Source: Eledone cirrhosa (taxonomy: Eukaryota). Taken from it: a stretch of 64,000 nucleotides of DNA. The stretch spans positions 367,846,001-367,910,000 of the forward strand of contig OZ024742.1 of NCBI GenBank assembly GCA_964016885.1, written 5' to 3'. This document shows positions 1 through 64,000 of the stretch, in pieces. The translations under genes were made by a program, and so were the position numbers. Position 1 is the first letter of the stretch, and every line of letters begins with the position of its first letter. The notes beneath the pieces were generated by a model that did no database searches, was not told the DNA's origin, and saw only the letters and a list, made by a program, of their open reading frames with translations.

Positions 1-3000
1 CAATACCTGCTCCGGTGTGTCTTAATGCTGTCTCCAATGTCTGGTCAGTCCAACAGATCTAGCTGAACTGTCTTCTGACAATACCAGCTCCGGTGTGTTT
101 AATGCAGTCTCCAATGTCTGGTCAGTCCACCAGATCTAGCTGAACTGTCTTCTGACAATACCAGCTCCGGTGTGTCTTAATGCAGTCTCCAATGTCTGGT
201 CAGTTCACCAGATCTAGCTGAACTGTCTTCTGACAATACCAACTCCGGTGTGTCTTAATGCAGTCTCCCATGTCTGGTCAGTCCAACAGATCTAGCTGAA
301 CTGTCTTCTGACAATACCAGCTCCGGTGTGTCTTAATACAGTCTCCAATGTCTGGTCAGTCCACCAGATCTAGCTGAACTGTCTTCTGACAATACCAACT
401 CCGTTGTGTCTTAATGCAGTCTCCCATGTCTGGTCAGTCCAACAGATCTAGCTGAACTGTCTTCTGACAATACCAACTCCGGTGTGTCTTAATGCAGTCT
501 CCAATGTCTGGTCAGTCCACCAGATCTAGCTGAACTGTCTTCTGACAATACCAGCTCCGGTGTGTCTTAATGCAGTCTCCAATGTCTGGTCAGTCCAGCA
601 GATCTAGCTGAACTGTCTTCTGATAATACCAGCTCCGGTGTTTCTTAATGCTGTCTCCCATGTCTGGTCAGTCCAACAGATCTAGCTGAACTGTCTTCTG
701 ACAATACCAGCTCCGGTGTGTCTTAATACAGTCTCCAATGTCTGGTCAGTCCACCAGATATAGCTGAACTGTCTTCTGACAATACCATCTCCGGTATGTC
801 TTAATACAGTCTCCAATGTCTGGTCAGTCCACCAGATCTAGCTGAACTGTCTTCTGACAATACCAGCTCCGGTGTGTCTTAATGCAGTCTCCCATGTCTG
901 GTCAGTCCACCAGATCTAGCTGAACTGTCTTCTGACAATACCAGCTCCGGTGTGTCTTAATGCAGTCTCCAATGTCTGGTCAGTCCACCAGATCTAGCTG
1001 AACTGTCTTCTGACAATACCAGCTCCGGTGTGTCTTTATACAGTCTCCAATGTCTGGTCAGTCCAACAGATCTAGCTGAACTGTCTTCTGACAATACCAG
1101 CTCCGGTGTGTCTTAATGCAGTCTCCAATGTCTGGTCAGTCCACCAGATCTAGCTGAACTGTCTTCTGACAATACCAGCTCCGGTGTGTCTTAATGCAGT
1201 CTCCAATGTCTGGTCAGTCCACCAGATCTAGCTGAACTGTCTTCTGACAATACCAGCTCCGGTGTGTCTTAATACAGTCTCCAATGTCTGGTCAGTCCAC
1301 CAGATCTAGCTGAACTGTCTTCTGACAATACCACCTCCGGTGTGTCTTAATGCAGTCTCCAATGTCTGGTCAGTCCACCAGATCTAGCTGAACTGTCTTC
1401 TGACAATACCAGCTCCGGTGTGTCTTAATGCAGTCTCCCATGTCTGGTCAGTCCACCAGATCTAGCTGAACTGTCTTCTGACAATACCAGTTCCGGTGTG
1501 TCTTAATGCAGTCTCCAATGTCTGGTCAGTCCACCAGATCTAGCTGAACTGTCTTCTGACAATACCACCTCCGGTGTGTCTTAATGCAGTCTCCAATGTC
1601 TGGTCAGTCCACCAGATCTAGCTGAACTGTCTTCTGACAATACCAGCTCCGGTGTGTCTTAATGCAGTCTCCCATGTCTGGTCAGTCCACCAGATCTAGC
1701 TGAACTGTCTTCTGACAATACCAGCTCCGATGTGTCTTAATGCAGTCTCCAATGTCTGGTCAGTCCACCAGATCTAGCTGAACTGTCTTCTGACAATACC
1801 AGCTCCGGTGTGTCTTAATGCAGTCTCCAATGTCTGGTCAGTCCACCAGATCTAGCTGAACTGTCTTCTGACAATACCAGTTCCGGTGTGTCTTAATGCA
1901 GTCTCCAATGTCTTGTCAGTCCAACAGATCTAGCTGAACTGTCTTCTGACAATACCACCTCCGGTGTGTCTTAATACAGTCTCCAATGTCTGGTCAGTCC
2001 ACCAGATCTAGCTGAACTGTCTTCTGACAATACCAGCTCCGGTATGTCTTAATGCAGTCTCCTATGTCTGGTCAGTCCACCAGATCTAGCCGAACTGTCT
2101 TCTGACAATACCAGCTCCGGTGTGTCTTAATGCAGTCTCCCAATTCTGGTCAGTCCAACAGATCTAGCTGAACTGTCTTCTGACAATACCAGCTCCGGTG
2201 TGTCTTAATACAGTCTCCAATGTCTGGTCAGTCCAACAGATCTAGCTGAACTGTCTTCTGACAATACCAGCTCCGGTGTGTCTTAATACAGTCTCCAATG
2301 TCTGGTCAGTCCAACAGATCTAGCTGAACTGTCTTCTGACAATACCAGCTCCGGTGTGTCTTAATACAGTCTCCAATGTCTGGTCAGTCCACCAGATCTA
2401 GCTGAACTGTCTTCTGACAATACCAGCTCCGGTGTGTCTTAATGCAGTCTCCAATGTCTGGTCAGTCCACCAGATCTTGCTGAACTGTCTTCTGACAATA
2501 CCAGCTCCGGTGTGTCTTAATGCAGTCTCCAATGTCTGGTCAGTCCAACAGATCTAGCTGAGCTGTCTTCTGACAATACCAGCTCCGGTGTGTCTTAATG
2601 CAGTCTCCAATGTCTGGTCAGTCCAACAGATCTAGCTGAACTGTCTTCTGACAATACCAGCTCCGGTGTGTCTTAATGCAGTCTCCAATGTCTGGTCAGT
2701 CCACCAGATCTTGCTGAACTGTCTTCTGACAATACCAGCTCCGGTGTGTCTTAATGCAGTCTCCAATGTCTGGTCAGTCCAACAGATCTAGCTGAACTGT
2801 CTTCTGACAATACCAGCTCCGGTGTGTCTTAATGCAGTCTCCAATGTCTGGTCAGTCCAACAGATCTAGCTGAACTGTCTTCTGACAATACCAGCTCCGG
2901 TGTGTCTTAATGCAGCCTCCTATGTCTGGTCAGTCCAACAGATCTAGCTGAACTGTCTTCTGACAATACCAGCTCCGGTGTGTCTTAATACAGTCTCCTA

Positions 3001-6000
3001 TGTCTGGTCAGTCCAACAGATCTAGCTGAACTGTCTTCTGACAATACCAGCTCCGGTGTGTCTTAATACAGTCTCCAATGTCTGGCCAGTCCACCAGATC
3101 TAGCTGAACTGTCTTCTGACAATACCAGCTCCGGTATGTCTTAATGCAGTCTCCTATGTCTGGTCAGTCCACCAGATCTAGCTGAACTGTCTTCTGACAA
3201 TACCAGCTCCGGTGTGTCTTAATGCAGTCTCCCATGTCTGGTCAGTCCAACAGATCTAGCTGAACTGTCTTCTGACAATACCAGCTCCGGTGTGTCTTAA
3301 TGCAGTCTCCAATGTCTGGTCAGTCCACCAGATCTAGCTGAACTGTCTTCTGACAATACCAGCTCCGGTGTGTCTTAATACAGTCTCCAATGTCTGGCCA
3401 GTCCACCAGATCTAGCTGAACTGTCTTCTGACAATACCAGCTCCGGTGTGTCTTAATACAGTCTCCAATGTCTGGCCAGTCCACCAGATCTAGCTGAACT
3501 GTCTTCTGACAATACCAGCTCCGGTGTGTCTTAATCCAGTCTCCAATGTCTGGTCAGTCCACCAGATCTAGCTGAACTGTCTTCTGACAATACCAGCTCC
3601 GGTGTGTCTTAATGCAGTCTCCCATGTCTGGTCAGTCCACCAGATCTAGCTGAACTGTCTTCTGACAATACCAGCTCCGGCGTGTCTTAATGCAGTCTCC
3701 AATGTCTGGTCAGTTCACCAGATCTAGCTGAACTGTCTTCTGACAATACCAGCTCCGGTGTGTCTTAATGCAGTCTCCAATGTCTGGTCAGTCCACCAGA
3801 TCTAGCTGAACTGTCTTCTGACAATACCAACTCCGGTGTGTCTTAATCCAGTCTCCAATGTCTGGTCAGTCCAACAGATCTAGCTGAACTGTCTTCTGAC
3901 AATACCAGCTCCGGTGTGTCTTAATACAGTCTCCAATGTCTGGCCAGTCCACCAGATCTAGCTGAACTGTCTTCTGACAATACCAGCTCCGGTGTGTCTT
4001 AATGCAGTCTCCAATGTCTGGTCAGTCCACCAGATCTAGCTGAACTGTCTTCTGACAATACCAGCTCCGGTGTGTCTTAATCCAGTCTCCAATGTCTGGT
4101 CAGTCCAACAGATCTAGCTGAACTGTCTTCTGACAATACCAGCTCCGGTGTGTCTTTATACAGTCTCCAATGTCTGGTCAGTCCACCAGATCTAGCTGAA
4201 CTGTCTTCTGACAATACCTGCTCCGGTGTGTCTTAATGCTGTCTCCAATGTCTGGTCAGTCCAACAGATCTAGCTGAACTGTCTTCTGACAATACCAGCT
4301 CCGGTGTGTCTTAATGCAGTCTCCAATGTCTGGTCAGTCCACCAGATCTAGCTGAACTGTCTTCTGACAATACCAGCTCCGGTGTGTCTTAATGCAGTCT
4401 CCAATGTCTGGTCAGTTCACCAGATCTAGCTGAACTGTCTTCTGACAATACCAGCTCCGGTGTGTCTTAATGCAGTCTCCCATGTCTGGTCAGTCCAACA
4501 GATCTAGCTGAACTGTCTTCTGACAATACCAGCTCCGGTGTGTCTTAATGCAGTCTCCCATGTCTGGTCAGTCCAACAGATCTAGCTGAACTGTCTTCTG
4601 ACAATACCAGCTCCGGTGTGTCTTAATGCAGTCTCCAATGTCTGGTCAGTTCACCAGATCTAGCTGAACTGTCTTCTGACAATACCAGCTCCGGTGTGTC
4701 TTAATGCAGTCTCCCATGTCTGGTCAGTCCAACAGATCTAGCTGAACTGTCTTCTGACAATACCAGCTCCGGTGTGTCTTAATACAGTCTCCCATGTCTG
4801 GTCAGTCCAACAGATCTAGCTGAACTGTCTTCTGACAATACCAGCTCCGGTGTGTCTTAATGCAGTCTCCAATGTCTGGTCAGTCCAACAGATCTAGCTG
4901 AACTGTCTTCTGACAATACCAACTCCGGTGTGTCTTAATGCAGTCTCCAATGTCTGGTCAGTCCACCAGATCTAGCTGAACTGTCTTCTGACAATACCAA
5001 CTCCGGTGTGTCTTAATGCAGTCTCCAATGTCTGGTCAGTCCAACAGATCTAGCTGAACTGTCTTCTGACAATACCAACTCCGGTGTGTCTTAATGCAGT
5101 CTCCAATGTCTGGTCAGTCCACCAGATCTAGCTGAACTGTCTTCTGACAATACCTGCTCCGGTGTGTCTTAATACAGTCTCCAATGTCTGGTCAGTCCAC
5201 CAGATCTAGCTGAGCTGTCTTCTGACAATACCAGCTCCGGTGTGTCTTAATGCAGTCTCCCATGTCTGGTCAGTCCACCAGATATAGCTGAACTGTCTTC
5301 TGACAATACCAGCTCCGGTATGTCTTAATAAGTCTCCAATGTCTGGTCAGTCCACCAGATCTAGCTGAACTGTCTTCTGACAATACCAGCTCCGGTGTGT
5401 CTTAATGCAGTCTCCCATGTCTGGTCAGTCCACCAGATCCAGCTGAACTGTCTTCTGACAATACCAGCTCCGGTGTGTCTTAATGCAGTCTCCAATGTCT
5501 GGTCAGTCCACCAGATCTAGCTGAACTGTCTTCTGACAATACCAGCTCCGGTGTGTCTTTATACAGTCTCCTATGTCTGGTCAGTCCAACAGATCTAGCT
5601 GAACTGTCTTCTGACAATACCAGCTCCGGTGTGTCTTAATACAGTCTCCAATGTCTGGTCAGTCCACCAGATCTAGCTAAACTGTCTTCTGACAATACCT
5701 GCTCCGGTGTGTTTTAATGCAGTCTCCCATGTCTGGTCAGTCCACCAGATCTAGCTGAACTGTCTTCTGACAATACCAACTCCGGTGTGTCTTAATGCAG
5801 TCTCCAATGTCTGGTCAGTCCAGCAGATCTAGCTGAACTGTCTTCTGACAATACCAGCTCCGGTGTGTCTTAATGCAGTCTCCAATGTCTGGTCAGTTCA
5901 CCAGATCTAGCTGAACTGTCTTCTGACAATACCAGCTCCGGTGTGTCTTAATGCAGTCTCCCATGTCTGGTCAGTCCAACAGATCTAGCTGAACTGTCTT

Positions 6001-8477
6001 CTGACAATACCAGCTCCGGTGTGTCTTAATGCAGTCTCCCATGTCTGGTCAGTCCACCAGATCTAGCTGAACTGTCTTCTGACAATACCAGCTCCGGTGT
6101 GTCTTAATGCAGTCTCCAATGTCTGGTCAGTCCACCAGATCTAGCTGAACTGTCTTCTGACAATACCAGCTCCGGTGTGTCTTAATGCAGTCTCCCATGT
6201 CTGGTCAGGCCAACAGATCTAGCTGAACTGTCTTCTGACAATACCAGCTCCGGTATGTCTTAATAAGTCTCCAATGTCTGGTCAGTCCACCAGATCTAGC
6301 TGAACTGTCTTCTGACAATACCAGCTCCGGTGTGTCTTAATGCAGTCTCCCATGTCTGGTCAGTCCACCAGATCCAGCTGAACTGTCTTCTGACAATACC
6401 AGCTCCGGTGTGTCTTAATACAGTCTCCAATGTCTGGCCAGTCCACCAGATCTAGCTGAACTGTCTTCTGACAATACCAGCTCCGGTATGTCTTAATGCA
6501 GTCTCCTATGTCTGGTCAGTCCACCAGATCTAGTTGAACTGTCTTCTGACAATACCAGCTCCGGTGTGTCTTAATGCAGTCTCCCATGTCTGGTCAGTCC
6601 AACAGATCTAGCTGAACTGTCTTCTGACAATACCAGCTCCGATGTGTCTTAATGCAGTCTCCAATGTCTGGTCAGTCCACCAGATCTAGCTGAACTGTCT
6701 TCTGACAATACCAGCTCCGGTGTGTCTTAATACAGTCTCCAATGTCTGGTCAGTCCAACAGATCTGGCTGAACTGTCTTCTAACAATACCAGCTCCGGTG
6801 TGTCTTAATTCAGTCTCCAATGCCTGGTCAGTCCAACAGATCTAGCTGAACTGTCTTCTGACAATACCAGCTCCGGTGTGTCTTAATGCATTCTCCAATG
6901 TCTGGTCAGTCCACCAGATCTAGCTGAACTGTCTTCTGACAATACCAGCTCCGGTGTGTCTTAATACAGTCTCCAATGTCTGGTCAGTCCACCAGATCTA
7001 GCTGAACTGTCTTCTGACAATACCAGCTCCGGTGTGTCTTAATACAGTCTCCAATGTCTGGTCAGTCCAACAGATCTAGCTGAACTGTCTTCTGACAATA
7101 CCAACTCCGGTGTGTCTTAATGCATTCTCCAATGTCTGGTCAGTCCACCAGATCTAGCTGAACTGTCTTCTGACAATACCAGCTCCGGTGTGTCTTAATA
7201 CAGTCTCCAATGTCTGGTCAGTCCACCAGATCTAGCTGAACTGTCTTCTGACAATACCAGCTCCGGTGTGTCTTAATACAGTCTCCAATGTCTGGTCAGT
7301 CCAACAGATCTAGCTGAACTGTCTTCTGACAATACCAGCTCCGGTGTGTCTTAATACAGTCTCCTATGTCTGGTCAGTCCACCAGATCTAGCTGAACTGT
7401 CTTCTGACAATACCAGCTCCGGTGTGTCTTAATGCATTCTCCAATGTCTGGTCAGTCCACCAGATCTAGCTGAACTGTCTTCTGACAATACCAGCTCCGG
7501 TGTGTCTTAATACAGTCTCCAATGTCTGGTCAGTCCAACAGATCTAGCTGAACTGTCTTCTGACAATACCAGCTCCGGTGTGTCTTAATACAGTCTCCAA
7601 TGTCTGGTCAGTCCAACAGATCTAGCTGAACTGTCTTCTGACAATACCAGCTCCGGTGTGTCTTAATGCAGTCTCCAATGTCTGGTCAGTCCACCAGATC
7701 TAGCTGAACTGTCTTCTGACAATACCAGCTCCGGTGGGTCTTAATGCAGTCTCCAATGTCTGGTCAGTCCAACAGATCTAGCTGTACTGTCTTCTGACAA
7801 TACCAGCTCCGGTGTGTCTTAATACAGTCTCCAATGTCTGGTCAGTCCACCAGATCTAGCTGAACTGTCTTCTGACAATACCTGCTCCTGTGTGTCTTAA
7901 TGCAGTCTCCAATGTCTGGTCAGTCCACCAGATCTAGCTGAACTGTCTTCTGACAATACCAGCTCCGTTGTGTCTTAATGCATTCTCCAATGTCTGGTCA
8001 GTCCACCAGATCTAGCTGAACTGTCTTCTGACAATACCACCTCCGGTGTGTCTTAATGCAGTCTCCAATGTCTGGTCAGTCCACCAGATCTAGCTGAACT
8101 GTCTTCTGACAATACCAGCTCCGGTGTGTCTTAATGCAGTCTCCCATGTCTGGTCAGTCCAACAGATCTAGCTGAACTGTCTTCTGACAATACCAGCTCC
8201 GGTGTGTCTTAATACAGTCTCCAATGTCTGGTCAGTCCACCAGATCTTGCTGAACTGTCTTCTGACAATACCAGCTCCGGTGTGTCTTAATGCAGTCTCC
8301 AATGTCTGGTCAGTCCAACAGATCTAGCTGAACTGTCTTCTGACAATACCAGCTCCGGTGTGTCTTAATACTGTCTCCAATGTCTGGTCAGTCCAACAGA
8401 TCTAGCTGAGCTGTCTTCTGACAATACCAGCTCCGGTGTGTCTTAATGCAGTCTCCAATGTCTGGTCAGTCCAACAG
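1..8477. repeat. Tandem satellite A, 78-bp monomer, about 109 copies in window (continues past left edge)
   Basis: Consensus CAATACCAGCTCCGGTGTGTCTTAATGCAGTCTCCAATGTCTGGTCAGTCCACCAGATCTAGCTGAACTGTCTTCTGA recurs every 78 nt with few substitutions; each monomer has a stop in all six frames. Confidence 0.99.
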
Positions 8478-8541
8478 CTGACCTGAAAGTTAAATCACAC
8501 TCATTGTAAATATACTTTATTTGGTTTAGAGGAATACATCT
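8443..8541 (-). pseudogene. Degenerate terminal C2H2 zinc finger plus stop (RTE-like LINE ORF2 end or ZNF last exon); founder of satellite A
   Basis: Manual translation of minus strand 8541->8443 gives RCIPLNQIKYIYNECDLTFRSAVGLTRHWRLH*. This fits Y-x-C-x2-C-x3-F-x5-L-x2-H-x3-H with the first Cys as TAC, one change from TGC. Confidence 0.8.
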
Positions 8542-8627
8542 AGAAACGAAGGAACTATATGTCACTATACTTTCTCAAGTATTGAGTACAATATTTTATA
8601 TATTTTATCTCTATTATCACTAACACG

Positions 8628-8800
8628 AATTGGCAGTATTGGTAAAGGGTCAGACATGTTTTCCAGCATAGTTACGTCCATTTGCGATCCGAGTTCAAAT
8701 CCCGCCGAGGTTAACTTTGCCTTCCATCCTTACGTAGTTGATAAAATAAAGTACCAGTAATACAGTGGTATTTGCTGGCTTTGTGCCAAAAGTAGAAACA
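8628..8800 (+). mobile_element. tRNA-derived SINE with 15-bp target-site duplication
   Basis: A-box-like TGGCAGTATTGG and B-box GAGTTCAAATCCC; body shared with other copies in the window; ATTATCACTAACACG at 8613-8627 and 8801-8815. Confidence 0.9.
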
Positions 8801-8898
8801 ATTATCACTAACACGCATACACTCATTCATATAGGTGTGTGTGTATGATTGCATGTATGCATGTGTAGAGAGAGAAAGGACGGTTAGATGGATAGATA

Positions 8899-10958: not shown

Positions 10959-11000
10959 TATGTTATTATCTATATAGCTAGACAGATAGGTAGATAGATA

Positions 11001-13677
11001 TGTTGTTTTTATTAGCCACAGGGGCACAAAAGAAGTGGGCAAATACAAAGGGGGAAGTTTACATACAATAAAAACGTGTAAAATACTATCACAAATGCAA
11101 TTTAAAAAACAATCGATTTTCCCCAATAGGGGGAGACATTACATATGGGTAACACATACCCCCGAAAAAATGTGCAACCTTCATCTCCAGGAGTACGAAG
11201 AGTGAGTACTCCTTTCCTCTTTTCCTCTTTTTCCTCAACTTACAGGCTGATATAGAGAGAAGGCCCATTCACTCGGGCCATTCTCGCCACTTTCACCCAC
11301 CTTTCATAAAACTTGCTGGGGTACAGCACCTCTCTCTCCATCCTGGGGTACAGCACCTCTCTCTCCATCCTGGGGTAGAGCACCTCTCTCTCCATCCTGA
11401 TTCTTCTTCCAAAGTGGTATTTGAAAAAAAAGAATCAGTTGTTGGCCGGAGAGAAAGGTGTCTGACCTCAGCCCTTTTAACCTCGTCCACCATACAACCT
11501 CTTTCGCCATAGCTACCACACCGACTTTTGAAGGAGGGTGGTGGTTTGATCATGACAATGGACTCAGTGGTCAACCGGATTGGTCCCACCCGCGACAATA
11601 GTCCTTCTATATAGCCCCACGGGTCGGTAACGCCCGGGCAGTGTACGAATGCGTGCGCGACGGTTTCTTCGTCTCGCACGCATCTCGGACAGATCTTTTT
11701 CGAAAGGTCCCTGCTCGGGCGCCCGTGTCTGTAGAGCTTGTCTCGAACTGCTAGAGCTCCTCGGTAGCACTCCCAGGCCAGGGGTTTTGGAAGTTGTCCA
11801 TCGTCCCGGGCGGAAGGTCCTACCGAACAGACTGGCCAATTCATCTTCCTCTACGCCTAGAGTTTCTCCGAGCGCGTCGTCGCACTTGCTGCGGACCAAC
11901 CCTCTATATAATGACGAAGTGGAGTCTCCACTGATCGCCGGGTCCGCCTGCCAGAGGGCTGTGAGCGCCTGAGCACATTCGATGTGCCAGTCACCCATTT
12001 TCCTCGGTCTTTTCTTGACACAGCACTGCAGCTCGGTCAGCGAGACGAGTCGTGGGAAGGCTCGCCTCACGAACGGGGCCCACACCGGTTGTCCGGTGAG
12101 GAATACGTGGAGGTGCCGCAGTCTGAGCGCGTGTTTGCGCATCGTCAGCCACGGCTTCCCCAGCCCTCCGTTGGAAGGGTGTTGGCAGCAGATGGATCTT
12201 CTCACCAAAGGAGCCTGCTTCTTCCAAAGGAATTGGAAGGGCGCGCGCTCCATTTTGGTGAGCGTTTGGGCTGGACAAGGCACGACGGTCAAGCGGTAGT
12301 AGATGACGGACGCTATAAAAGTGTTCGCCACCTCCGCTCGACCTTTCAAGTATAGTTTTCACTGGGTGAGTGCAAACACCTTGGCCGTCACCTCGTTCCA
12401 GTTCTTCTCCACCTGGAGGTCCTGACCAAACCAGACCCTGAGCAGCTTTACCGGTCCTTCCGTCCAGCGTCCGACGACGGCATCGGAAGGCATCGGTTTG
12501 CCTCTCCACGATCCGAGTTGCAAACCGATGGACTTGTCCCCTCTTCAGCTTCGTTCCTGCGAACCTTTCTTATTCCTCCAGTAAGGTGCCGACTTCCTAG
12601 ATTTGCGAGGTGCTCGACACCATTACTGTCACGTCGACGGCGTAGGCCGACGCCGCATTCCACAGTCCTGGTTCCAGAGGGATGCCCTGCAATAGCTGCA
12701 ACTTCCGCAGTAGTGGCTCGAGAGTCAGAACGTAGAGAAGGGAGGAGAGAGGGCATTCCTATCGGATGGATCGCGTGATATGGAACGGCTCCGAGAGGTA
12801 GCCGTTCACCTTGACCCTTGAGCAGATGTTGCTGCTGTGCATTGCAGCAATCCAGCCCCTGAACAGGGGTCCGAAGCCTGCCGCCTCGAGCACCGCATCC
12901 AGGTAACCCTATCGAAAGCCTTAGACTGATCCAAGTTGATCAGGGCCCCACTCAAGTCGGGTTTACACCCTACCCTCTCTACGATGTATCGCATGAGGTG
13001 GAGGTTGTCGTGTATGGACCTGGTCGGGATTGCGCATGTCTGCGCTTCTCCCACCAGGTTTTCGACGACAAGCACCAGCTTCTTTGCCAAGAACTTGGCC
13101 AAAATCTGTAACTCTGTGTTTAGGAGAGTTATGGGCCGGAGGTTGCCTATGTCATCCCCCTTATTCTCGCCTTCGTGACTAGAGTGACTACGCCCTTGGT
13201 CACAGAGCTGGGAATTCTCCCGTTCTGTTGTCAGTTGCAGTAAACCGCTTCCAAGAGAACAGACAACAAGTCCGGCATTGCTACGTAAAATTCGTAGGGT
13301 AGACCGTCGAGACCTGGAGATTTGAGTTTGCCGCATTGGCTCAGCGCGTCCCCTATCTCAGCGGCCGAAATAGGCCTTTTGCAGAACTTCGCCTCGCTGT
13401 CCGAGAGTCGCGGTAGGCCGTCGAGGTATGGACCGAAATCCATAGCCCCTCCCGGCACGCCACCCTGCCCGAACAGTTGAGCAAAGTGCCGCTGAAAGGC
13501 CGCGCACATCTGCTTCGGCTCACGTATCATGCGTCCGTCCTGGTCCTTCAAAGACCGAATCGTGGACTTGTTGCCACTTTTCGCCTCCGTCGCTCGGGCC
13601 CAGCTAACAGCTTTGGCTCCCTCGTTACCCAGAGCACGTATTTTGCTTCTGAGAACGCAGCCCTCGTGCTTTGCGTA
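11001..13677 (-). mobile_element. 5'-truncated, frameshifted Tx1/L1-clade LINE (RT domain, C-terminal Cys/His motif, 3' UTR)
   Basis: Minus-strand ORF pieces: KSPGLDGLPYEFY, NLRPITLLNTELQILAK, LINLDQSKAFDRV, KGRAEVANTFIASVIYYRL, WECYRGALAVRDKL..CPRC..ETVAHAFVHC. AATAAA lies just before a TATC-repeat tail. Confidence 0.92.
11316..11396. repeat. 3 x 27-bp tandem repeat inside Tx1 ORF2 C-terminal region
   Basis: CTGGGGTA(C/G)AGCACCTCTCTCTCCATC three times; the homologous segment of the second Tx1 (about 61588-61615) is single copy. Confidence 0.95.
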
Positions 13678-13697
13678 GACAGACAGAGTGATAGATA

Positions 13698-13778
13698 TGT
13701 TTCTTTATTTGTCACAAGGGTGCACAATAAAAGGGACATTACAAGACGTGACGTCGGGTGTTGTACGTAACAAATGTT
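13698..13778 (-). mobile_element. 81-bp 3'-end stub of Tx1-type LINE with 12-bp TSD
   Basis: TGTTTCTTTATTTGTCACAAGGG terminus; GAGTGATAGATA at 13686-13697 and 13779-13790. Confidence 0.75.
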
Positions 13779-59634: not shown

Positions 59635-60492
59635 CTAGAGATCTTCAAGGTGGCAGATAACATCAGACAGTTGTTGAGCAAAAGTATGAAGTCCTGGGAA
59701 ACAGAGTTAACATCGGGTGGAGAATCCTTGGGAGGCGTGAAGATCAAGAGAGGTATCTTCCAGGGAGATAGTTTGTCCCTCTGCTGTTTGTCCTTGCCCT
59801 GATACCCCTGACCATTATATTGCGAAAGTGAGAGCAGGATACAAGTTGGGAAAAGGAGAGCTTACCATCATCCACCTCCTTTTCATGGACGATATTAACC
59901 TCTTTGGGAAGAGTGAGAAGGAGTTGGATGTACTTGTTGACACTGTGCGTATTTTCAGCAATGATATATGTATGGAATTTGGTATTAGTAAGTGTGGAAT
60001 CCTAGTGATGAAGAGGGGTAAATTGAGCAGAAGCAACGGAATCCAGGTACCAACAGATGAGATGATAAAGGAAATTGACACTGAAGAAGGATACAAATAT
60101 TTAGGTGTTCTGGAGGCTGATGACATCAAGAACGAAAAAATGAAAGAATTGATAAGATCTGAGTACATAAGGAGAGTAAGGAGCGTATTAAAATCACATC
60201 TGAACAGCAGGAATGCCATAAGTGCAGTGAATTCCCGAGCTGTGTCTATTATTAGGTACAGTGCGGGAATTCTGAGATGGAATGTTGCTGAACAAAAAGA
60301 AATGTATAAGAAGACTAGGAAGCTATTGACTATCTACAACATGTTCCACAAGAGGAGTGATGTCGATAGACTCTACTTAAAGAGATCTGAAGGTGGAAGA
60401 GGTCTTATCAGCATAGAGGACTGTGTTTAGATGGAGAAAAACAACCTACACAAATATGTGACTGATAGTAAGGAGCCAATACTGAAGGAGAA
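59635..60492 (+). mobile_element. R4/Dong-clade LINE reverse-transcriptase fragment (pseudogenised)
   Basis: IKRGIFQGDSLS (frameshift) LLFVLALIPL...HLLFMDDINLF...MEFGISKC...YKYLGVLEAD...RLYLKRSEGGRGLISIEDCV*. Confidence 0.85.
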
Positions 60493-61216: not shown

Positions 61217-64000
61217 TGATTTCTTTATTGGCCACAAGGGCTGACATCAAGAAAAAACATTACAAACGGCACAGGACGGTACGATGTGGGTTTTGTGCGT
61301 GTAAATATTTTTATTATTTATATAAGAAAAGAAAAAAAGACATATAAACATATATATATATATAAACAATAAAAATGAAAATTGAAACAATGAAAAATTC
61401 CCCTATAGGAGGGAAACCTCCGAGGGTTACTCGTGGCGAAAACCACACAAAAAGCCACGGCCACCCTGACCACCAGGGCGAGCGCCCTCTCTCAAATTTT
61501 CCATTTCTCAAACTACAGATGTATTTTCAGAGCGGTACCCTTCACTCGGACCATTCACGCTACATTCACCCACCTTTCAACAAACTTGCTAGAAAGCAGC
61601 ACTTGCCTCTCCACCCTGATTTTCATCTTCACGTGAAACTTGAAAAAGTTAATTAGAGATTCGCCGAAGAGGAAAGTGTCTGTCTTTAACCCTTTCAACC
61701 TTGTCCACTACACAATCTCTTTCGCCATGGCCACCAGGCAGATGAAAACCGCCTGCCCTTCCTCCTCGAAGGAAGAGGGCGAGACCATCTGCACAATGGA
61801 CTCAGTCGATAACCGGATCAGTGCTACACGCGACAGCAACTGTTCGACATAGCTCTACAAGTCAGCAATGCTCGGGCACTGAACGAGTGCGTGCACGACG
61901 GTTTCGTCGCCCTGCGCGCATCTCGGACAGGCTCGGCTGACGGCACTTCCGTGCCTGTAGAGTTTATCTCGAACCGGCAGTGCTCCCCGGTAGCACTGCC
62001 AGGCCAGGGATTTTTGGAAGTTATCCATAGGCCCTGGGCTGAAAGTTCTCCGGAAGAGAGCAAACAGCTGATCTTCGACGCCTAGGATCTCTCCGAGAAC
62101 GTCGTCGATCTTCGACTCCACTCGTCCTCTATAGAACGCCGAGGTGGATGTTCCACCGATACTGGTGCCCAGCTGACAGAGGGCAATGAGCGCCTGGAGA
62201 CATTCCAGTTTCCAAGCACTATCCCTCGGTCTTTTCCTGACCCAGGACTGCAGCTCCGTCAAGGAGACGATCTGTGGGAAAACGTGCCTGGCGAACGGCG
62301 ACCACAGCTATTCACCGTAAAAGAAGCATCAGAGATGTCGCAGGCTCAGCGCATGTTTGCGCATCATCAGCCATGGCATGTCCAGTCCTCCACGCAACGG
62401 GTGTTGACAGCAGATAGATCGTCTGACCACGGGAGCGCGTCCCTTCCACAAAACACGGAAGAGAAGGCGCTCCATTTTGGTGAGAGTTGGGACGGGGCAA
62501 GAGACGACGGTGAGGCGGTAGCAGATGACGGATGCGATGTACGCATTCGCCACCTCCGCGCGGCCTTTCAGGGACAGATTCCCCTCGGCCCATTTCTGGG
62601 GGAGGGAGGCCACCCTGCTCGTCACCTCGCTCCAGTTTTTCTCCATCTGGAGGTCCGGTCCAAACCAGACCCCGAGAAATTTAACCAGTCCGTCCGTCCA
62701 ACGCCCCACGACTCTGTCGGACGGCATGGACTTGCCTCTCCAGGTGCCGAGCTTCAAGCCCACCGACTTTTCCTGGATTATCTTTGCTCCTGTCACCGCT
62801 TCGTATTCCTTGAGAGCGGTGCCGAGCATCTGGACGTGTCTTGTGCTCGACACCAGCACGGTAACGTCGTCGACGTAAGCCGACTCGGATTTCCCGAATC
62901 CTAGTTCGCGTGGGACGCCCTCATCGCCCCCAGTTTGTGCAGTAACGGCTCGAGAGACAATACGTACAAGAGAGACGAGAGGGGACAACCCTGGCGGACC
63001 GAGCACATGATGCTGAACGGCTGCGACAGGTGACGGTTCGCCCTCACAACTGAGCAGATGTCGCTGTACATCGCAGCGATCCAACCCCTGAAAACGGGCC
63101 CGAAACCGGCTGCCTCGAGAACGGTCGCTAAGCATCGATTGTCGACCCTATCGAATGCTTTGGATTGATCCAAGTTGATCAGGGACCCACTTGTGCCAGG
63201 TTGCTTAACCGCCCTCTCTACGATGTATCGCATGATGTGGAGGTTGTCGTGTATGGATCTGTCCGGAATGGCGGATGCGCTCCTCCCACCAGACCCCCGA
63301 CGACATGCGCCAACCTCGTTGCTAACACCTTGGCCAAAATCTTGAACTCTGCGTTTAGCAGCGTTATGAGCTTGAAGTTATCGATAAATCCCCCTTGTTC
63401 GGGTCTTTTCTCAGCAGCGCCACCGCTCTCCGGTTCACAAAACTGGTAATGCTCCCGTTCTGTTGCCAGTTGCAGTAGACGTCTGTCAAGAGGTCACCGA
63501 ACAAGTCTGGCATAAATGCATAAAGTTCGTAGGGCAGACCATCCAAACGTGGCGATTTACCCCTCGTGCAGTTAGCCATCGCTTCCCGTATTTCACCGGC
63601 TGTTATTGGCTTTTCGCAACACTGCGCTGCGGTCGTCGAGAGCCGAAGCAGTCCGTCGAGGTATACACTGACCTCCATACCCCGATCCGGCCCGCCGCTG
63701 CTCCCTAACAGTTCAGCAAAGTGCTGCTGAAAAGCCTCACACATCTGCTCGGGTTCGAGCAACACGCGCCCGTTTTATTCAGATAAAGACCCAATTGTGG
63801 CTTTGTTGCCACGTCGCGCCTCTGCCACGCCGGCCCATTGGACGGCTTTTGTCCCCTCGTGTTTCAGAGAACGTGCTCTAGCTCTGACAACGCAGCCTTC
63901 GTGTTTTGCGTTTGATGAATTGGTCGAGTGCCAATCTCGCCGCAAGCACGTCGGTTGCGATGCCTGTCCTAAACGCCCCTTCTAGCTTTCTGACTAGCTC
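61217..64000 (-). mobile_element. Second Tx1/L1-clade LINE (frameshifted; continues past right edge)
   Basis: GKSPRLDGLPYELY, LINLDQSKAFDRV, SVRQGCPLS, SAYVDDVT, LSLKGRAEVAN, WQCYRGALPVRDKL..CPRC..ETVVHALVQC; 3' end CCCTTGTGGCCAATAAAGAAATC followed by (ATT)n. Confidence 0.93.

What the first reader, a model, noticed from the sequence alone, without database searches (positions are those of the whole stretch)
1..8554. 78-bp satellite grows out of the last half of a C2H2 zinc finger and its stop codon
Seen: on the minus strand the unique flank encodes KYI(Y)NECDLTFRSA and continues into the array as VGLTRHWRLH*. Every monomer repeats SA-RS-(V/G)GLTRHWRLH* plus about 30 nt of 3' flank. Monomers carry a 6-bp AGATCT insert (BglII site) that the founder lacks (CAGCT-GTTGG vs CAGCT-AGATCT-GTTGG), so it was fixed at or soon after the first duplication. 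Known: many RTE-clade ORF2 proteins end in CxxC..S..GL..H.R.H*. Alternative: terminal exon of a C2H2-ZNF gene, since an acceptor-like TTCCTTCGTTTCTAG lies at 8554-8540.
Basis: partly seen in the sequence, partly recalled or inferred. Interest (0 to 1): 0.8.

Follow-up and report, generated by a model that had tools for sequence, protein, structure and literature searches.

The report
Satellite born from retrotransposon zinc finger
A 48-kb non-coding array of 78-base repeats is made from the middle zinc finger of a decayed LINE retrotransposon copy, likely by local duplication and expansion, and the same short segment is also repeated in tandem at two other loci, which makes it a clear but largely ordinary case of satellite DNA arising from a transposon.

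Summary
The array is real: about 618 monomers of 78 bp, 48.2 kb, at one locus (476 of 476 genome-wide junction matches lie in it). Its unique flank and monomer match a dispersed LINE at 75-87% (38 places). Those copies have variable 5' truncation, a fixed 3' end, reverse transcriptase upstream and an ORF ending in three C2H2 fingers: RTE-type by architecture, no tree run. Two details are wrong. The finger is the second of three, not the last. The TAA is a nonsense change: 35 of 47 copies have GAA there and none has TAA. AGATCT sits at the monomer junction; insert versus remnant of finger 3 is unresolved. All six frames are closed. New: the same 47-bp segment seeded two more arrays in other copies (25.9 kb on C1719; at least 1.7 kb on C10), while two control segments gave none. 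The neighbouring 61-bp satellite lies inside a CR1-like LINE. Verdict: new member of a known kind, with a possible hotspot of satellite birth.

The parts
1..8477 (-). 78-bp satellite array, 109 monomers in the window; whole array G000:C3:367806268-367854477, about 618 monomers, 48.2 kb
   Evidence: monomers 2.4% from the array majority
8478..8518 (-). Founder stub: unique 5' remnant of a 5'-truncated RTE-type LINE copy, encoding the first half of zinc finger 2; homology to the family stops at about 8514-8519
   Evidence: 8 of 37 bases differ from the family majority
8446..8508 (-). Decayed C2H2 finger 2 of the LINE ORF: first Cys codon is TAC (8508-8506), second Cys 8499-8497, His codons 8460-8458 and 8448-8446
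8443..8445 (-). TAA, a nonsense change of the family's Glu codon, copied into 582 of 610 monomers
   Evidence: GAA 35, AAA 6, other 6, TAA 0 among 47 copies
8411..8442 (-). Linker between fingers 2 and 3, the second half of the monomer, with a 4-bp deletion near its end relative to the LINE
8398..8403 (-). First AGATCT, at the junction between monomers 1 and 2; either inserted at the junction or a remnant of finger 3

Best explanation
This is a single-locus, non-coding satellite whose monomer is the second half of zinc finger 2 plus the following linker of a decayed, 5'-truncated LINE of RTE-type architecture, and it likely arose in place by a microhomology-guided tandem duplication followed by expansion. 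Step 1 (shown by homology; insertion mechanism inferred): a LINE copy truncated about 40 bp upstream of the future array inserted here. Step 2 (shown): it decayed, losing the first Cys, gaining the TAA and a 4-bp deletion, to 18% from the family majority. Step 3 (inferred): one duplication joined the end of the linker back into finger 2 through a few shared bases, leaving AGATCT at the joint. Step 4 (inferred): unequal exchange or replication slippage expanded this to about 618 copies, late in the copy's history, since monomers share the decay changes and differ by only 2.4%. Step 5 (absence shown, cause inferred): the founder's third finger and tail were lost where the array now abuts a 38-bp satellite. 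It most likely has no protein function.
For: 38 dispersed matches at 75-87% to window 8518-8411. 19 of 38 fetched with long flanks share a fixed 3' end and differ in 5' extent from 0 to over 1.2 kb; 10 of these 19 end in an ATGT-type tail by a strict rule. Upstream reads as RT: RVT_1 E=2.6e-14. Intact relatives carry endonuclease, RT and fingers; 29 of 63 have three fingers; a genomic copy aligns at 55% over 136 aa to all three fingers of P0004. The stub is contiguous and in register with monomer 1. 476 of 476 junction-pattern matches in the genome lie in this array. All six frames of the majority monomer hold a stop. The C1719 array shows the same kind of event with both LINE flanks intact.
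Against: The founder's 3' remainder was not found in 50 kb beyond the far end, in 12 samples of 2 kb, or in 50 kb at the far side of the 66-bp array, so the junction cannot be read directly. The founder is more diverged (19 of 105 bases) than the copies examined (mean 9.8%, sd 3.2, maximum 18.4%), which may mean an older subfamily. Homogenisation can make an array look younger than it is. RTE clade membership rests on architecture and recalled motifs, not on a tree. Pfam found no endonuclease domain in the two broken genomic pieces tested; that link is through P0004 (58% over 341 aa).
Confidence: 0.93

Rival explanations
1. The stub is the last exon of a C2H2 zinc-finger gene, spliced at the acceptor-like site at 8554-8540, or a LINE fragment exonised in that way.
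For: A pyrimidine run ending in AG is present; the peptide scores weakly as zf-C2H2.
Against: The sequence is one of many dispersed LINE copies that continue into RT. The first Cys is lost and the stop is derived. The acceptor-like string lies outside the homology. The upstream 5.7 kb is microsatellite, a SINE-like insert and another LINE.
Confidence: 0.02
2. The monomer arose elsewhere, in a LINE subfamily or mobile unit already carrying the 78-bp tandem, and was delivered here, as for retrotransposon-borne tandem repeats.
For: The neighbouring 61-bp satellite fits this model: 6 of 6 related CR1-like copies fetched hold 2 to 14 or more units.
Against: No junction match outside this array; none of the 47 aligned RTE copies shows the junction; the unit joins finger 2 off-register and carries a stop, so no active element would hold it.
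Confidence: 0.04
3. The array is an assembly artefact.
For: The far end abuts another satellite in mid-monomer with no spacer, as a mis-join could.
Against: Monomers carry many distinct variants. In run X1, contigs on the array have summed depth of 1,567-2,852 against 9.5 on the unique flank, though X1 may be the sample that was assembled.
Confidence: 0.01

Closest known systems
Satellites derived from LINE ORF2: chicken HinfI (CR1), Phodopus PROsat and seal Pvc 20 (L1), as listed in PMC9659126 (passages and section 2.2 read)
   Same: Tandem repeat whose monomer matches coding sequence of a non-LTR retrotransposon.
   Different: Here the parent is RTE-type, the whole monomer is coding-derived, and the founder stub is still attached.
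Retrotransposon-derived satellites of Lathyrus sativus (PMC7004042, abstract read)
   Same: Short TE-internal sequence expanded to long arrays at a few loci that are rich in satellites.
   Different: There the short arrays already exist inside LTR elements. The RTE parent here has no such array; the neighbouring 61-bp CR1-like satellite does fit that model.
RTE-2_OV of Octopus vulgaris (PMC9115989, passages read)
   Same: Single ORF of about 1,100 aa with endonuclease, RT and a C2H2 finger, which that paper calls relatively rare in RTE elements.
   Different: No sequence comparison was possible; the copies here are old and broken (about 10% from their majority), and the host of this window is not established.
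Microhomology-mediated tandem duplication (PMC13167724, abstract and start of introduction read); hotspots for tandem repeats within AluS and LTR12 (PMC3389668, passages read)
   Same: A single-copy segment flanked by short shared words duplicates and expands; certain TE segments do so repeatedly.
   Different: The two 47-bp arrays have clear 8-bp arms; the 78-bp junction is complex. Two of the arrays here reach tens of kb.

Membership tests
RTE-clade non-LTR retrotransposon (parent element) | One ORF with AP endonuclease and reverse transcriptase (feature as given in PMC5850137) | tested here: met
   RVT_1 hit; N-terminal piece 58% identical to P0004, which carries PF03372/PF14529, PF00078 and PF00096 in 1,091 aa. 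Genomic copies are broken, so the single ORF is taken from relatives.
RTE-clade non-LTR retrotransposon (parent element) | 3' end in short tandem repeats, not poly-A | tested here: met
   10 of 19 copies end in an ATGT-type tail by a strict rule; 4 lack the terminal motif, 5 have altered tails; none of the 15 tails read is poly-A.
RTE-clade non-LTR retrotransposon (parent element) | Dispersed copies with fixed 3' end and variable 5' truncation | tested here: met
RTE-clade non-LTR retrotransposon (parent element) | RT domain groups with named RTE elements in a tree | not tested
   No named RTE reference was returned by any tool.
RTE-clade non-LTR retrotransposon (parent element) | Target-site duplications | not tested
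   Not examined in the dispersed copies; impossible for the founder, whose 3' end is missing.
TE-derived satellite DNA | Long head-to-tail array of similar monomers | tested here: met
   617 anchored monomers, 610 of 616 spacings exactly 78 bp, 48.2 kb.
TE-derived satellite DNA | Monomer homologous to part of a transposable element | tested here: met
   First monomer matches the family majority at 57 of 68 bases.
TE-derived satellite DNA | Heterochromatic or centromeric location | not testable with these tools
   It lies in a cluster of other satellites; no chromatin data.
Satellite expanded from a tandem repeat already carried by the TE | Short arrays of the same unit in dispersed TE copies | tested here: not met
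   No 78-bp junction outside this locus.
Microhomology-mediated tandem duplication | Short direct repeat flanking the duplicated unit in the parent | tested here: inconclusive
   Several break positions with 2-4 shared bases fit the 78-bp junction. For the 47-bp arrays the arms match at 7 of 8 bases in the family majority, and 17 of 47 copies carry the base that removes that mismatch.
C2H2 zinc-finger gene, terminal exon | Intact CxxC...HxxxH finger in an open frame | tested here: not met
   First Cys codon is TAC; score below the Pfam cut-off.
C2H2 zinc-finger gene, terminal exon | Spliced transcript using the acceptor at 8540 | not testable with these tools
   No RNA holder listed.

The most novel reading that the evidence does not exclude
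One 47-bp coding segment of this RTE-type LINE, which holds no tandem repeat in the parent, is a sequence-determined hotspot of satellite birth: three separate insertions each turned it into an array (48 kb, 26 kb, at least 1.7 kb), and CpG decay in the linker, which perfects an 8-bp direct repeat with a palindromic core, primes dead copies for the first duplication. The three arrays would be natural replicates for testing how satellites start and what lets them grow.
Probability: 0.5. Interest if true: 0.55.

Novelty: new member of a known kind. Interest (0 to 1): 0.36.

Why it matters
The origin of the first monomer of a satellite is rarely visible. Here the parent sequence, the founder stub and the decay changes fixed in the monomer can all be read, and two further arrays from the same segment give independent replicates, one with both flanks intact. 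A 2022 review (PMC9659126, section 2.2) found no conclusive evidence that given parts of a TE are preferred sources of satellites; this family lets that be counted. It also warns annotators: such arrays give hundreds of false zinc-finger fragments. The kind of event itself is known, and no function is indicated.

Tried and rejected
Expression: no RNA holder listed; not evidence either way. Zinc-finger score: tested on the unaltered peptide and on natural LINE copies, which leaves the score of a Cys-restored peptide open. Search for the founder's 3' half on the far side of the array: nothing in the stretches read; most of the 269-kb 66-bp array was only sampled. Hairpin as the cause of the hotspot: the 60-nt windows over the unit are unremarkable (z from -0.4 to +1.1 for windows starting at positions 32-52); rejected for the family majority. 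Uniqueness of the direct repeat: 10 such 7-of-8 repeats in about 390 nt, so it does not single the site out. One search lost its anchor for finger 2, so only its whole-element counts were usable. Higher-order repeat: none clear; lag 1 gives 3.7% difference against a median of 4.05%. In-register recombination between fingers 2 and 3: rejected, as that would give about 108 bp. Further finger-2 arrays with periods 62-92: one match, inside the C1719 array; the pattern cannot see the 78-bp array or other diverged ones. Second depth peak along the LINE: no tandem match, and 40 of 40 scored hits were single dispersed copies at 93-100%, so likely due to closer likeness there. Runs X4, X5 and X6, labelled as other organisms, each hold one or two low-depth array-type contigs; trace DNA cannot be told from shared ancestry, so not used. 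Origin of the 66-, 38-, 27-, 39- and 21-bp satellites: only low-complexity or 23-26-bp matches in the loci held. Earlier findings: none returned. Literature: eight searches listed no paper whose title or abstract start describes a satellite from an RTE zinc finger; only open-access papers are held. Supplements 5-8 of PMC9115989 were not searched and may hold the RTE-2_OV sequence.
Full report
Observation. Tandem Repeats Finder gives one array at window 1-8477, period 78, 108.7 copies, 96% matches. On the minus strand the flank reads KYIYNECDLTFRSA and continues in frame as VGLTRHWRLH*. The window is G000:C3:367846001-367910000 in a 3.0-Gb genome. The array runs on past the window start to C3:367806268: 617 anchored monomers, 610 of 616 spacings exactly 78 bp, 48.2 kb. 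An exact 28-base junction pattern has 476 matches in the genome and 476 in this array, so it is a single-locus satellite at that stringency. Full-length monomers differ from their majority by 2.4%, evenly along the array, and all six frames of the majority contain a stop.

The parent. A search with window 8400-8600 found 38 dispersed places at 75-87% identity, covering only window 8518-8411 (39 of 73 candidates scored). I fetched 19 of the 38 with long flanks. They share a 3' end about 130-150 bp downstream and differ in 5' extent from none to over 1.2 kb; 10 of the 19 end in an ATGT-type tail. The longer ones read as reverse transcriptase upstream. A 1.8-kb piece had 984 candidate places, and longer copies reach about 3.9 kb. 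Pfam gives RVT_1 at E=2.6e-14 but no endonuclease hit in two broken pieces; one of these aligns at 58% over 341 aa to P0004, an unnamed 1,091-aa protein with endonuclease, RT and C2H2 domains. Of 63 relatives, 29 end in three C2H2 fingers, 1 in five, 5 in two, 10 in one and 18 in none by a strict motif. One ORF with endonuclease and RT and a tandem-repeat tail are the RTE features given in PMC5850137 (passages), and an octopus RTE with a C2H2 finger is described in PMC9115989 (passages). I ran no tree, so the clade is inferred. That the host is an octopod is my guess from the repeat landscape, recalled and untested.

I aligned 47 copies (53 loci examined, 48 covered the region, one segmental duplicate dropped). 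The satellite comes from finger 2 of 3 and the linker after it. After the second His the copies have GAA 35, AAA 6, other 6, TAA 0, so the stop is a nonsense change, now in 582 of 610 monomers. The unaltered peptide scores E=3.9e-4 against zf-C2H2, under the cut-off, while some natural copies pass it. The acceptor-like string lies outside the homology. Stub plus first monomer differ from the family majority at 19 of 105 bases, against a mean of 9.8% for the copies. As the monomers share these changes and differ by 2.4%, amplification likely came late, with the caveat of homogenisation.

The junction. AGATCT is at 574 of 609 junctions and not before monomer 1. It could be an insert after an early break, or a remnant of finger 3, whose sequence matches it at 5 of 6 bases a few bases further on. 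A pair-HMM over all break positions gave 51-83% for an early break and 7-40% for a late one across six settings. The founder's 3' half, which would decide this, is missing: the array ends in mid-monomer against a 38-bp satellite (3.3 kb), followed by a 66-bp satellite of about 269 kb, sampled not read whole.

Two more arrays from the same segment. Contigs laid hinted at a 47-bp repeat. A pattern search placed it on C1719: 132989-158845, about 550 units, 3.6% from their majority, inside one truncated LINE copy with finger 1 upstream and finger 3 and the 3' end downstream. A tandem pattern for periods 31-61 gave 294 matches, 285 there and 9 at C10:40.065 Mb. The C10 array has 47/48-bp units and derived 27- and 31-bp units, spans at least 1.7 kb and runs into a gap. 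The three founders have different flanks and mostly private changes; the shared ones are two common family variants, one unit-boundary base and one rare base shared by C3 and C10. The 47-bp unit is bounded by CAGCTGGT and CAGCCGGT in the family majority, and 17 of 47 copies carry T at the mismatched CpG site.

Is it a hotspot? For: three separate founders; no tandem match for two control cores elsewhere in the LINE, one of similar conservation; summed contig depth along 2.9 kb of the LINE peaks in the finger-2 bin (3,764 against a median near 870 in X1). Against: a second bin is as high (3,646), though it traced to dispersed copies; the tool warns that contig depth cannot rank parts; direct repeats of this quality are common (10 in about 390 nt) and folding is unremarkable; the controls are two, with narrow period ranges and exact matching; 3' parts of a LINE are the most numerous. 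I put it at even odds.

Known context. LINE ORF2-derived satellites are listed in PMC9659126 (passages and section 2.2), which also states that no preferred TE portion is established. PMC3389668 reports such hotspots in AluS and LTR12 (passages). PMC7004042 (abstract) shows expansion of TE-borne arrays, and PMC13167724 (abstract) supports microhomology-guided duplication as a general first step. Eight searches, seen as listings only, showed no report of a satellite from an RTE zinc finger.

Verdict. Real, well explained, non-coding; a new member of a known kind. Interest 0.36, mostly for the three replicate births and the readable founder.

Noticed in passing
window 14127-50290 (+), array 14258-50249: The 61-bp satellite (36 kb, with inverted blocks between 35.7 and 41.2 kb) lies inside a 5'-truncated CR1-like LINE copy: it repeats the codons near the end of ORF2 and ends in the element's 3' end and ATT tail. 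An open ORF2 with one unit is at L066:871-3081; 6 of 6 related copies fetched hold 2 to 14 or more units. The CR1 label is recalled from motifs.
   Followed up: partly
G000:C1719:132989-158845 (L102-L104): 25.9-kb array of a 47-bp unit from the same finger-2 segment, inside one LINE copy with both flanks intact; eight 76-bp variants recur at kb-scale spacings, suggesting block duplications. It lies near a 27-bp satellite of at least 30 kb.
   Followed up: yes
G000:C10:40064186-40065908 (L108): Third array from the same segment, with 47/48-bp units and shorter 27- and 31-bp units, running into an assembly gap.
   Followed up: yes
G000:C3:367533923-367806267: A 66-bp satellite of about 269 kb (sampled) and a 38-bp satellite of 3.3 kb abut the 78-bp array without spacers; 21- and 39-bp arrays lie further on. 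The cluster of five or more satellites could mark heterochromatin or a centromere. Some 66-bp units hold a 16-bp palindrome with the same CCAGCTGG core as the 47-bp unit.
   Followed up: partly
window 8613-8814: A roughly 175-bp dispersed repeat with a tRNA B-box-like motif (recalled), flanked by a 14-bp direct repeat at 8613-8626 and 8801-8814: a likely SINE with its target-site duplication.
   Followed up: partly
window about 11000-13700 (-) and about 61900-64000 (-): Decayed LINE copies of another family, judged by eye and by translation to resemble the RT-bearing element in L058 and L056; the Tx1/L1-like label is recalled.
   Followed up: no
protein P0002: A relative of the parent ORF with five fingers, apparently from an in-frame duplication of fingers 2 and 3.
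   Followed up: no
window about 59740-60430 (+): A 229-codon open stretch that reads like an RT fragment of a further retroelement.
   Followed up: no
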